The notes under the pieces: generated by a model
Database searches by the model: none
What the model saw: the letters and a program-made list of their open reading frames with translations, nothing else
Told to the model about the DNA's origin: nothing
Translations under genes and position numbers: made by a program
Shown: one piece after another, positions 56,598 to 57,633 of the stretch
Numbering within the stretch: the stretch's first letter is position 1
Layout of the letters: the number at the start of each line of letters is the position of its first letter
Source of the DNA: Escherichia phage BEU5
Direction: 5' to 3' (one strand)
DNA length: 64,000 nt
Sequence record: OM632664.1

Positions 56598-56804
56598 ATG
56601 TTTAAGTTTTTAGACCTTATCTGGGCAGTCATTTTGCTGGTTGCTACAGGCTTTGTATATGGCTTCTTGCTCCCATCAATGATGTCTGCTTTAGACAGCA
56701 TCATTGTTGTTATGGGCTTGATAGTCTGTATTGTGTGGCCTCTTATCGTAGGCCGTATCGTTTATCTTACAGTTAAGAAAAGGATGAGAAGAAAACATGT
56801 ATAA
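56598..56804 (+). CDS. small membrane protein (2 TM), possible partner of the downstream SPFH protein
   Basis: ATG 56598 (GGAG RBS); two hydrophobic helices then basic tail KKRMRRKHV; stop overlaps the SPFH gene start. Confidence 0.45.
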   Translation: MFKFLDLIWAVILLVATGFVYGFLLPSMMSALDSIIVVMGLIVCIVWPLIVGRIVYLTVKKRMRRKHV

Positions 56805-57633
56805 GTACATTGCAGTAGCAATTGCAGGGCTAATCATTGCTCTAAGTTTAACGAGCTGCTATGACCGAGTTGAACCAGGTAATGTAGGTATTATCGTTAA
56901 CCGTCTCGGTGAAGATAAAGGCGTGGAAAATGAGGTTAAAGGTGTAGGCCGTTACTGGCTCACTTGGAATGAAGAACTTTATACATTCCCAACCTTTAAG
57001 CAGATGAAGACCTATGATGGTCTGTTCTACTTCCAACTGTCTGATGGTACTCAGATAGGCCACCAGATGGCTATCAGCTATAAAGTGAACCCTACTAAGG
57101 TAACTAATATCTTCCAGACGTATCGTAAGGGAGTTAATGAAATTACCGAGCAGGATTTACGCCAACGTATTGCTGATGTACTTAACAGACAGGGTAACCT
57201 GATTAACACTGATACATTTATTGATGGTGGTAAATCTAAGCTACTAGATAGTGTCACTGACACAATCCGTAAAGAGATGGAACCAGTGGGGATTGATATT
57301 ATTGCTATCTCCTGGATTGGTGCTCCTGAATACCCTGATAACGTTAAACGTGCCATTAATGCCAAAGTAGAAGCTACTCAGAAAACTCTGCAACGTGAGC
57401 AAGAGATTCAACAACGTGTAGCTGAAGCTAATATGGAACGTGAACAAGCTAAGGGTGTAGCTGATGCTATTCTGATTAAAGCTAAAGCAGAGGCTGATGC
57501 TATTCGTTTACGTGGTGAAGCACTCACCGAGAATCCAAATGTAATGCAACTGGAAGCTATTAATAAGTGGAATGGTACATTACCTACCACAATGATTCCT
57601 GGGGCTACTACACCTTTCGTTAATGTGAAATAA
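56797..57633 (+). CDS. SPFH/band-7 (prohibitin/HflC-like) domain lipoprotein
   Basis: Lipoprotein signal MYKYIAVAIAGLIIALSLTSC; SPFH-like VEPGNVGIIVNRLGE start, Ala/Glu-rich coiled coil and EAINKWNGTLP end. Confidence 0.6.
   Translation: MYKYIAVAIAGLIIALSLTSCYDRVEPGNVGIIVNRLGEDKGVENEVKGVGRYWLTWNEELYTFPTFKQMKTYDGLFYFQLSDGTQIGHQMAISYKVNPTKVTNIFQTYRKGVNEITEQDLRQRIADVLNRQGNLINTDTFIDGGKSKLLDSVTDTIRKEMEPVGIDIIAISWIGAPEYPDNVKRAINAKVEATQKTLQREQEIQQRVAEANMEREQAKGVADAILIKAKAEADAIRLRGEALTENPNVMQLEAINKWNGTLPTTMIPGATTPFVNVK

What the first reader, a model, noticed from the sequence alone, without database searches (positions are those of the whole stretch)
56598..57633. Phage-encoded SPFH/band-7 lipoprotein with an overlapping small two-TM partner
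The SPFH protein has a lipoprotein signal and prohibitin-like motifs. The 68-aa membrane protein upstream overlaps its start, as NfeD-type partners do in bacterial SPFH operons. The pair sits between two terminators as an insulated unit and could remodel host membrane microdomains, for example for superinfection exclusion or lysis timing.
Basis: partly seen in the sequence, partly recalled or inferred. Interest (0 to 1): 0.6.

Follow-up and report, generated by a model that had tools for sequence, protein, structure and literature searches.

The report
Phage SPFH lipoprotein with hairpin partner
These are genes 19 and 20 of an N4-type coliphage: a prohibitin/HflK/C-like membrane-cage protein facing the periplasm and a tiny two-helix membrane partner, which together form a two-gene module found in many unrelated phages, with unknown biological purpose.

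Summary
The window is an N4-like coliphage, 100% identical to phage BEU13 and 98.6% to N4. The two ORFs are N4 gp19 (68 aa, two TM helices) and gp20 (278 aa, lipobox LTSC, Pfam Band_7 E=1.7e-23). They overlap by 8 nt and lie between two terminator-like hairpins. GenBank already annotates them as "membrane protein" and "SPFH lipoprotein".

Three results go beyond that annotation:
- **gp19 is not NfeD.** It belongs to a distinct hairpin family with a conserved turn, P-x-h-h-S-x-x-[DNS]-[ST]. A member sits directly upstream of the SPFH gene in 109 of 130 loci from diverse phages and prophages, usually with an ATGA overlap.
- **The two genes are sometimes fused.** At least 12 divergent relatives are single polypeptides: hairpin, third TM with lipobox, then SPFH.
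- **The SPFH domain faces the periplasm.** Topology and the closest relatives (prohibitin, HflC/K, erlin) place it on the periplasmic face, probably of the inner membrane.

The most likely mechanism is a two-component HflK/C-like cage that fences off a membrane patch during early or middle infection. Its client (FtsH-like?) and its role (superinfection exclusion?) were not tested. The flanking terminators are typical of this part of N4 and are not conserved with the module. I rate this a new variant of a known kind, of moderate interest.

The parts
56564..56586 (+). Terminator-like hairpin (GCCCTCC-TAT-GGAGGGC) followed by T6. It lies between gp18 and gp19 and ends 11 nt before the gp19 ATG.
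   Evidence: -13.6 kcal/mol, z=-2.7. Annotated as a terminator in phage Jura.
56589..56592 (+). Shine-Dalgarno GGAG for gp19, 5 nt upstream of the ATG.
   Evidence: Read directly from the sequence.
56598..56804 (+). gp19: a 68-aa two-TM hairpin protein (PHROG_1130). It has short positive N- and C-terminal tails. The conserved turn L-P-S-M-M-S-A-L-D-S (residues 25-34) is predicted to face the periplasm.
   Evidence: Among 76 unique homologues P is kept in 96%, S in 97% and G in 96%.
56797..56804 (+). 8-nt overlap of the gp19 stop and the gp20 start (ATGTATAA), consistent with translational coupling.
   Evidence: Homologous pairs overlap by 4 nt (ATGA) in 23 unique cases and by 8 nt in N4-likes.
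56797..57633 (+). gp20: a 278-aa SPFH/band-7 lipoprotein precursor (PHROG_200).
56797..56859 (+). Lipoprotein signal peptide (residues 1-20) and lipobox L-T-S-C. Cys21 is followed by Tyr22-Asp23.
   Evidence: Cys is invariant in alignments A1, A2 and A4. The +2 residue statistics are.
56866..57426 (+). SPFH (Band_7) domain, residues 24-210. It starts 3 residues after the lipidated Cys.
   Evidence: (E=1.7e-23) and the AF2 secondary structure.
57337..57531 (+). Long coiled-coil helix (residues 181-245), the CC1-type wall helix of SPFH cages.
   Evidence: Aligned over full length to HflC, prohibitin and erlin chains.
57565..57630 (+). Conserved C-terminal motif K-W-N-G-x-L-P...P-F-V-N-V-K. It has low confidence in the monomer model and is the presumed cap of the oligomer.
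   Evidence: K257, W258, G260 and P263 are invariant in both A1 and A2; P273 and F274 are invariant in A2 only. pLDDT is below 50.
57640..57669 (+). Terminator-like hairpin (AAACCCACC-ATTAC-GGTGGGTTT) plus T-run after gp20.
   Evidence: -14.3 kcal/mol, z=-3.9. Annotated as a terminator in phage Jura.

Best explanation
gp19 and gp20 are the two subunits of one membrane complex.

**Proposed assembly**
- gp20 is exported, lipidated at Cys21 and held on the periplasmic face of a membrane, most probably the inner membrane.
- Like its closest relatives (prohibitin, HflK/C, erlin), it oligomerises into a closed SPFH cage of roughly 20-24 subunits over a membrane patch.
- gp19 is made in equal amounts by translational coupling. 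It inserts as an N-in/C-in helical hairpin.
- Its conserved periplasmic turn docks under the membrane-proximal SPFH ring. This supplies the transmembrane palisade that HflK/C and prohibitins provide with their own N-terminal helices.

**Proposed role**
- The complex is made from the early/middle part of the genome.
- It corrals or shields an inner-membrane component from the periplasmic side. By analogy with HflK/C-FtsH and prohibitin-m-AAA, the best guess for the client is FtsH or another host inner-membrane machine.

**Shown:** the fold, the lipobox, the hairpin family, the conserved adjacency and coupling, the natural fusions, and the predicted topology.
**Inferred:** cage formation, gp19-gp20 contact, inner-membrane location in N4, and the client.
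For: **Fold and closest relatives**
- Band_7 E=1.7e-23.
- A profile search of the PDB puts prohibitin-1/2, HflC and HflK on top.
- Foldseek gives full-length matches, probability 1.0, to HflC 7vhq_G, PHB1/2 8rrh, erlin, stomatin, HflK, QmcA and flotillin, all cage formers.
- The 62-65-residue CC1 helix, put into the published regression subunits=0.1782xCC1+10.22 (PMC12624060), gives about 21-22 subunits.

**Partnership**
- A gp19-family HMM hits 109 of 14,853 ORFs in 130 loci. There is never more than one hit per locus, always on the SPFH strand, and 107 lie within 60 nt of the SPFH start.
- Most remaining loci carry visibly similar two-TM ORFs, including a crAss-like phage.
- Stop/start overlaps are conserved.
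- The two families co-diverge: Mantel r=0.56, 0 of 2000 permutations as high.

**Natural fusions**
- At least 12 of the 150 best 50%-identity representatives are single chains of hairpin, third TM with lipobox, then SPFH. Those examined lie in phage-like contigs.
- AF2 of one fusion gives three helices followed by the SPFH fold.

**Topology**
- K+R versus D+E is 1.35/0.06 in the N-tail, 3.5/1.26 in the C-tail and 0.74/0.80 in the turn.
- The invariant residues P, S and G lie in or next to the turn.
- Some homologues carry an uncleavable N-terminal TM anchor instead of a lipobox.
- Prophage versions carry Cys-Asp, the E. coli inner-membrane retention signal (rule cited from PMC11005994).

**Genomic position**
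- The module sits in the N4 left-half region transcribed by RNAPII (PMC4496689).
- In temperate phages Stx2_95 and P18-100 it lies between the repressor gene and xis/int.
- In other phages it sits beside replication genes.
Against: - No experiment or multimer model shows that gp19 touches gp20, or that gp20 forms a cage. A monomer model cannot show it.
- N4 gp20 has Tyr rather than Asp at +2, so sorting to the outer membrane cannot be excluded. A prophage SPFH protein of Pasteurella was found in outer-membrane vesicles (PMC9872710); its homology to gp20 was not tested.
- Some phages pair the SPFH gene with a different small membrane protein: Pseudomonas TL, Staphylococcus K and phiCbK. In 4MG and phiEa104 other small ORFs intervene.
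- One representative (P0248) has the fusion in the opposite order, which does not fit the proposed topology.
- Nothing identifies FtsH as the client. The NCBIfam HflC score is far below its cut-off, 19.6 against 134.4.
Confidence: 0.5

Rival explanations
1. Superinfection exclusion or envelope sealing. The early-made pair alters the envelope so that DNA or ejection proteins of later-arriving phages cannot cross. Known precedents are T4 Imm/Sp, HK97 gp15, P22 SieA and the lipoproteins Llp, Cor and Ltp. This concerns purpose and is compatible with the cage mechanism.
For: - Early or accessory gene position in both lytic and temperate phages.
- The N4 neighbour gp18 is a P22 gp17-like protein.
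- Elsewhere the module neighbours Tad2-like and Acb2/Tad1-like genes, which marks a phage-conflict gene neighbourhood.
- Known phage exclusion proteins are small inner-membrane proteins or lipoproteins (PMC9586334 and PMC10883804, listed).
Against: - No similarity to any known exclusion protein, and no PADLOC match.
- The module occurs in phages with unrelated receptors and hosts, Gram-positive ones included. Any exclusion would therefore have to be receptor-independent.
- No clear sigma-70 promoter/terminator 'moron' structure in the prophage copies examined. Expression in lysogens is thus not indicated.
Confidence: 0.2
2. Outer-membrane or trans-envelope function. gp20 is sorted by Lol to the outer membrane. 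There it acts alone (receptor masking, vesicle formation), or it bridges to gp19 in the inner membrane in a spanin-like way.
For: - N4 gp20 lacks Asp at +2. Other homologues carry S, N, E, G or A at +2.
- The Pasteurella prophage SPFH protein PM0222 is found in OMVs and signals through TLR1/2.
- gp20 has a long coiled coil and a conserved C-terminal motif that could contact a partner.
Against: - In the fusions the SPFH domain follows the hairpin and a third TM in one chain.
- Variants with a TM anchor and no Cys exist.
- Cys-Asp is found in 50 of 120 close clusters. The N4-likes keep a conserved aromatic residue plus an acidic one after the Cys, which is not a typical outer-membrane signal.
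- gp19 exposes only about 10 residues to the periplasm.
Confidence: 0.12
3. Lysis timing. gp19 is a class-II-holin-like pore former and gp20 is its periplasmic regulator (an antiholin-like cage). This could contribute to the long latent period of N4.
For: - gp19 has holin-like features: small size, two TMs and a basic C-tail.
- In Kayvirus the pair MbpV/MbpS lies between the endolysin gene and tgl, and MbpV was called holin-like (PMC7150955).
Against: - No significant holin family match: best E=0.044, below the gathering score.
- In N4 and in 11 of 12 annotated phages examined, the module is far from lysis genes and sits among early or replication genes.
- The 1:1 fusions suggest a structural subunit rather than a regulated effector.
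Confidence: 0.08
4. A true SPFH-NfeD operon of bacterial type, acquired by the phage.
For: A small membrane protein gene lies adjacent to an SPFH gene and is co-oriented with it.
Against: - No NfeD domain in any of 9 family members, and no PDB hit, YbbJ included.
- 68 aa cannot hold an OB fold.
- No NfeD was found for SPFH3 (HflK/C) or SPFH4 (prokaryotic prohibitins), the groups gp20 resembles.
Confidence: 0.02

Closest known systems
HflK/HflC complex of E. coli (24-subunit periplasmic SPFH cage around FtsH)
   Same: The SPFH domain is followed by a long CC1 helix and a C-terminal cap. It lies on the periplasmic face of the inner membrane and is among the top structural and sequence hits.
   Different: - HflK/C is a hetero-oligomer of two paralogues, each with its own N-terminal TM helix. 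gp20 is a single protein anchored by lipid, with a separate two-TM partner.
- gp20 fails the HflC equivalog model, 19.6 against 134.4 bits.
- No link to FtsH has been shown.
Prohibitin PHB1/PHB2 (and the prokaryotic 'SPFH4' prohibitins of Hinderhofer et al. 2009)
   Same: Best sequence match in the PDB, E about 3e-10 over residues 25-236. The SPFH domain is on the non-cytoplasmic side. CC1 length is similar, giving a predicted ~22-mer.
   Different: Identity is only 16-18%. gp20 is a homo-oligomer candidate, is lipid-anchored, is phage-borne and has a dedicated hairpin partner.
QmcA-YbbJ (SPFH-NfeD) complex, PDB 8z5g
   Same: The logic is the same: an SPFH cage protein plus a co-encoded small membrane partner.
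   Different: QmcA faces the cytoplasm. YbbJ carries an OB-fold NfeD domain. gp19 has neither homology nor room for such a domain.
Kayvirus MbpV/MbpS (Staphylococcus phage K ORF29/ORF28)
   Same: MbpS is a homologue of gp20 (tblastn E=3e-15). It is preceded by a small membrane protein whose stop overlaps the SPFH start. Its function is likewise unknown (PMC7150955).
   Different: MbpV has one TM and a long cytoplasmic tail and is not in the gp19 family. MbpS has an N-terminal TM rather than a good lipobox. The pair lies next to the endolysin gene.
Phage exclusion proteins of the envelope (T4 Imm/Sp, T5 Llp, Cor, TP-J34 Ltp, P22 SieA, HK97 gp15)
   Same: They are early-made small inner-membrane proteins or lipoproteins encoded by phages.
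   Different: No sequence or fold relation was found: the fold searches and family scans returned only SPFH families and no exclusion-protein family. None of these proteins is an SPFH protein.

Membership tests
SPFH / Band 7 superfamily (gp20) | SPFH (PF01145) domain above the curated threshold | tested here: met
   84 bits against a 23.6 cut-off, E=1.7e-23, residues 24-210.
SPFH / Band 7 superfamily (gp20) | alpha/beta SPFH fold followed by a long coiled-coil helix and a C-terminal region | tested here: met
   AF2 model with pLDDT 77 and a helix at 181-245. Foldseek probability 1.0 to HflC, PHB, erlin and stomatin over about 280 columns.
SPFH / Band 7 superfamily (gp20) | Assembly into a large ring or cage on a membrane | not testable with these tools
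   Only monomer prediction is available. The C-terminal cap region has pLDDT below 50, as expected for a segment that needs neighbouring subunits.
Bacterial lipoprotein (gp20) | N-terminal signal peptide ending in a lipobox [LVI][ASTVI][GAS]C | tested here: met
   K3, a hydrophobic core at residues 5-17 and L-T-S-C21. Cys is invariant in A1, A2 and A4.
Bacterial lipoprotein (gp20) | Actual lipidation and membrane destination (+2 rule) | tested here: inconclusive
   N4-likes have Cys-Tyr-Asp/Glu and prophage versions have Cys-Asp. Asp+2 means inner-membrane retention (PMC11005994). That Tyr+2 also retains is my recollection of Seydel et al. 1999 and was not verified here.
NfeD family (gp19) | C-terminal NfeD/OB-fold domain (PF01957) | tested here: not met
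   No NfeD hit at E<=1 for any of 9 family members. The protein is 68 aa, of which about 40 are TM.
NfeD family (gp19) | Operon partner of an SPFH gene | tested here: met
   The genes are adjacent and overlapping. However, the partner SPFH is of the prohibitin/HflK/C-like type, for which no NfeD partners are known.
HflK/HflC (gp20) | Equivalog-level similarity and a paralogous K/C pair | tested here: not met
   TIGR01932 scores 19.6 against a 134.4 cut-off. There is a single SPFH gene in the module.
Class II holin (gp19) | Membership of a holin family and location in a lysis cassette | tested here: not met
   The best holin hit has E=0.044, 14.3 bits against 28.4. The neighbours are gp18, gp21 and an HNH endonuclease, not lysis genes.
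PHROG_200 / PHROG_1130 phage families | Profile match | tested here: met
   gp20 matches phrog_200 at E=6.8e-95 and gp19 matches phrog_1130 at E=2.7e-20.
Known anti-phage defence systems (PADLOC) | Profile match to any component | tested here: not met
   No hit for gp18, gp19 or gp20.

The most novel reading that the evidence does not exclude
Phages carry their own class of SPFH nanocage. It is a prohibitin/HflK/C-like lipoprotein plus a dedicated two-helix hairpin subunit. In some lineages the two are made as one precursor that the lipoprotein-processing enzymes may cut. The cage assembles on the periplasmic face of the inner membrane early in infection. There it would capture a universal host inner-membrane machine such as FtsH, or block membrane-acting defences. 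This would be a widespread and so far unstudied host-takeover device, and a natural tool for finding what SPFH cages do.
Probability: 0.2. Interest if true: 0.75.

Novelty: new variant of a known kind. Interest (0 to 1): 0.5.

Why it matters
SPFH proteins (prohibitins, stomatins, flotillins, HflK/C) are universal, and their cage structures have only recently been solved. What the cages do is still debated.

A phage-borne version must pay its way within one infection cycle, so it offers a simple genetic handle on that question. The module is common:
- 701 of 50,697 phage records.
- About 10% of complete E. coli genomes through prophages and phage-plasmids.
- Therapeutic-type phages including N4-likes, Kayvirus, Bruynoghevirus and Vequintavirinae.

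It is annotated inconsistently, for example as 'serine protease', 'transposase fusion protein' and 'ion transporter'. The hairpin partner is often not annotated at all.

Recognising the pair, and its fused forms, as one unit corrects those annotations. It also defines a testable complex. It would be the first SPFH type I know of that combines a lipid anchor with a non-NfeD membrane co-subunit.

Tried and rejected
- **NfeD homology of gp19:** rejected.
- **Defence-system models (PADLOC):** no hits.
- **Holin assignment of gp19:** only sub-threshold hits typical of any hydrophobic peptide.
- **Literature:** searches for N4 gp19/gp20, phage SPFH function and SPFH combined with anti-phage terms found no functional study. 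A search for Kayvirus MbpS expression timing gave nothing useful.
- **'Moron' idea:** the module does not show its own promoter and terminator in prophages. The scans of Stx2_95, a P1-like phage and an 82%-identical N4-like contig do not support it.
- **Single-sequence search with gp19:** this found only 2 clusters. A family profile was needed and found 172 clusters.
- **The search for related loci with the Rhizobium IG49 and phiEa104 proteins:** almost nothing new.
- **Structure of the complex:** the tools fold single chains only and return no coordinates or contacts, so neither model could show a hairpin-SPFH contact. A fusion protein was folded as a proxy; it gave three TM helices followed by the SPFH fold.
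Full report
**Identity of the locus**

The 1.5 kb around the finding is 100% identical to Escherichia phages BEU13, BEU42, BEU44 and BEU51, and 98.6% identical to coliphage N4. In the N4 reference the two ORFs are gp19 ('membrane protein') and gp20 ('lipoprotein'). Other records call gp20 'SPFH domain protein' or, wrongly, 'serine protease'. Upstream lie gp17 (Hoc-like decoration protein) and gp18, a P22 gp17-like protein (Pfam PF17420, E=2.4e-56). Downstream lie gp21 and an HNH endonuclease. The existence of the genes and the SPFH label are therefore already in the databases.

**Check of the observation**

- gp19 runs from 56598 to 56804 and has a GGAG Shine-Dalgarno 5 nt upstream.
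- gp20 runs from 56797 to 57633. Its ATG overlaps the gp19 stop in ATGTATAA.
- gp19 has two hydrophobic segments and a basic tail.
- gp20 begins with a typical lipoprotein signal that ends in L-T-S-C21.
- Pfam Band_7 scores 84 bits, E=1.7e-23.
- An AlphaFold2 model (pLDDT 77) shows the SPFH alpha/beta domain, a 65-residue helix and a poorly defined conserved C-terminus.
- Foldseek matches the model over its whole length to HflC, prohibitin-1/2, erlin-1/2, stomatin, HflK, QmcA and flotillin, all at probability 1.0.
- A sequence profile puts prohibitins and HflC/K on top in the PDB.
- Both flanking hairpins are real and stable.

**The 'insulated unit'**

Terminator-like hairpins also follow gp16, gp17 and gp18, so this is how this part of N4 is built. 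The hairpin before gp19 ends 11 nt from the ATG, so no promoter can sit between them. The pair must be expressed by read-through or from a start upstream of the hairpin. A sigma-70-like match lies at 56483-56511. N4 middle genes, however, use RNAPII with short AT-rich promoters (PMC4496689). Homologous modules in an 82%-identical N4-like contig, in Stx2_95 and in a P1-like phage have no such flanks.

**The partner is a family of its own, not NfeD**

gp19 has no NfeD domain and no PDB relative. Yet a 62-78-residue two-TM ORF lies directly upstream of the SPFH gene in essentially all 80 IMG/VR loci whose SPFH protein is 62-82% identical to gp20. These ORFs share only 23-46% identity with gp19, but they keep a proline, a serine and a glycine around the turn between the helices, in the pattern Y-G-x-L-L-P-x-h-h-S-x-x-[DNS]-[ST].

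An HMM of the family, searched against all 14,853 stop-to-stop ORFs of 130 loci, gave 109 hits. There was never more than one per locus, and all were on the SPFH strand. Of these, 107 lie within 60 nt of the SPFH start. Rhizobium phage IG49 and environmental contigs whose SPFH protein is only about 40% identical to that of Pseudomonas phage TL are among the hits.

Most loci without a hit carry visibly similar hairpins. These include an unannotated ORF in crAss-like phage cr128_1 and one in Stx2_95. The real exceptions are:
- Pseudomonas TL-like phages, with a 72-aa protein carrying one C-terminal TM.
- Staphylococcus phage K, with MbpV carrying one N-terminal TM.
- phiCbK, with a 116-aa protein carrying three TMs.

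The stop and start codons overlap by 4 nt in 23 unique pairs and by 8 nt in N4-likes. The two families co-diverge (Mantel r=0.56, 0 of 2000 permutations as high), although the hairpin evolves much faster. A profile search finds 172 clusters of the hairpin family. All are 'hypothetical' and none has a Pfam domain.

**Natural fusions**

An exhaustive search with gp20 finds 2,981 representatives at 50% clustering (E<1e-3), of which 169 have E<1e-30. Among the best 150, at least 12 by HMM, and about 19 by eye, are single polypeptides. They consist of a gp19-like hairpin with the same turn motif, a K/R-rich linker, a third hydrophobic helix ending in a lipobox Cys, and then the SPFH domain. The contigs examined are phage-like. 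AF2 of one fusion gives three helices followed by the SPFH fold.

This is classical gene-fusion evidence that the two proteins work together. It also fixes the relative topology: hairpin tails in the cytoplasm, SPFH outside. One representative has the reverse order and does not fit. The Cys is invariant even in the fusions, which raises the possibility that they are processed at the internal lipobox. This is unexplained.

**Topology and membrane**

In the hairpin family both tails are positively charged and the turn is neutral, which fits an N-in/C-in arrangement. The conserved residues then face the periplasm, the only place where they could meet a lipoprotein. In gp20 the SPFH domain starts three residues after the lipidated Cys, so it must lie flat on the membrane.

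Several points bear on which membrane that is:
- Some homologues replace the lipobox by an uncleavable TM anchor.
- The enterobacterial prophage versions carry Cys-Asp, the Lol-avoidance signal (PMC11005994).
- N4-likes carry a conserved Cys-Tyr-(Asp/Glu/Gln).

I recall that aromatic +2 residues can also retain lipoproteins (Seydel et al. 1999), but I could not verify this here. The inner-membrane location of N4 gp20 is therefore probable, not shown.

The closest relatives (HflK/C, prohibitins, erlins) are exactly the SPFH proteins that sit on the non-cytoplasmic side of their membranes. They are also the subfamilies for which no NfeD partner is known (PMC2636767).

**Mechanism**

All SPFH proteins with solved assemblies form closed cages whose subunit number tracks CC1 length (PMC12624060). 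The 62-65-residue helix of gp20 would give about 21-22 subunits. I propose a lipid-anchored gp20 cage on the periplasmic face of the inner membrane. An equimolar ring of gp19 hairpins beneath it would replace the N-terminal TM helices that HflK/C and prohibitins carry themselves.

What the cage encloses is not known. HflK/C, prohibitins and erlins all partner membrane-protein quality-control machinery: FtsH, m-AAA proteases and ERAD factors respectively. FtsH is therefore the best single guess, but a weak one.

**Where the module sits**

It lies among early or DNA-metabolism genes in N4, 4MG, phiEa104, TL, phiCbK, cr128_1, IG49 and a phage-plasmid. In Stx2_95 and Klebsiella P18-100 it lies between the repressor gene and xis/int. 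In P1-like elements it is in variable accessory regions. Only in Kayvirus is it next to the endolysin gene. Neighbours include Tad2-like and Acb2/Tad1-like genes. This favours an early host-takeover or phage-conflict role over a lysis role.

**Prevalence and novelty**

Homologues of gp20 occur in 701 of 50,697 phage records from Gram-negative and Gram-positive hosts. About 10% of complete E. coli genomes carry one. Papers have noted the domain in passing and speculated about lysogeny or secretion (PMC8540360, PMC7150955). I found no functional study.

The genes themselves are known. The conserved hairpin partner, its fusions and the HflK/C-like topology appear not to have been described. I classify this as a new variant of a known kind, with moderate interest.

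Noticed in passing
window 56209-56523: gp18 is a strong member of Pfam PF17420 'GP17' (P22 gene 17-like, labelled 'superinfection exclusion'), E=2.4e-56. It sits directly upstream of the module.
   Followed up: partly
window 55221-55246, 56161-56179, 56564-56580, 57640-57662: Four strong terminator-like hairpins lie within 2.5 kb, one after each of gp16, gp17, gp18 and gp20. The region has 10 sites against 2.0+/-1.4 expected. The biology of so many terminators in the N4 RNAPII-transcribed region is unclear.
   Followed up: partly
window 56483-56511: A sigma-70-like promoter match (TTGATA-17-AATAAT, 10 of 12) lies inside the 3' end of gp18. If used, it would place the 56564 hairpin in the 5' leader of the gp19-20 mRNA.
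   Followed up: no
window ~47900-49200: The window is circularly permuted relative to the N4 reference. This stretch carries gp71 and gp72 next to gp1 and gp2, so the junction of the physical genome ends lies here.
   Followed up: partly
window 57696-57920: gp21 (74 aa) gives a weak zinc-finger (zf-UBP) match, E about 1e-3, and belongs to PHROG_7431 of unknown function.
   Followed up: no
window 58479-59537 and 59705-60847: gp24 (annotated as ATPase) is followed by gp25, which contains an HELWH (HExxH-type) motif. RefSeq labels gp25 'HNH endonuclease', which looks doubtful.
   Followed up: no
L087 3756-3944 (Stx2a phage Stx2_95); L092 1254-1457 (crAss-like cr128_1): The hairpin partner gene is present but not annotated in these GenBank records. 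The SPFH gene is variously mislabelled 'serine protease', 'transposase fusion protein' or 'putative ion transporter'.
   Followed up: yes
P0244, P0252, P0254 and others (alignment A4): In the natural fusions the lipobox cysteine is invariant although it lies about 75 residues into the protein. This suggests an internally processed lipoprotein precursor, or a second role for the Cys.
   Followed up: partly
P0248: One representative carries the fusion in the opposite order, SPFH lipoprotein followed by a C-terminal gp19-like hairpin. This does not fit the proposed topology and may be an assembly artefact.
   Followed up: no
L134 9730-10305; L130 218-520; L132 4701-5924; L133 3327-4535; L091 2604-3771: In other phages the module's neighbours repeatedly include counter-defence-type genes (Tad2-like, Acb2/Tad1-hairpin) and RtcB RNA ligase.
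   Followed up: no
L072: In this prophage copy the hairpin gene is split. Its 3' end abuts the SPFH gene and the HMM hit lies about 2 kb upstream, which suggests an insertion into the partner gene.
   Followed up: no
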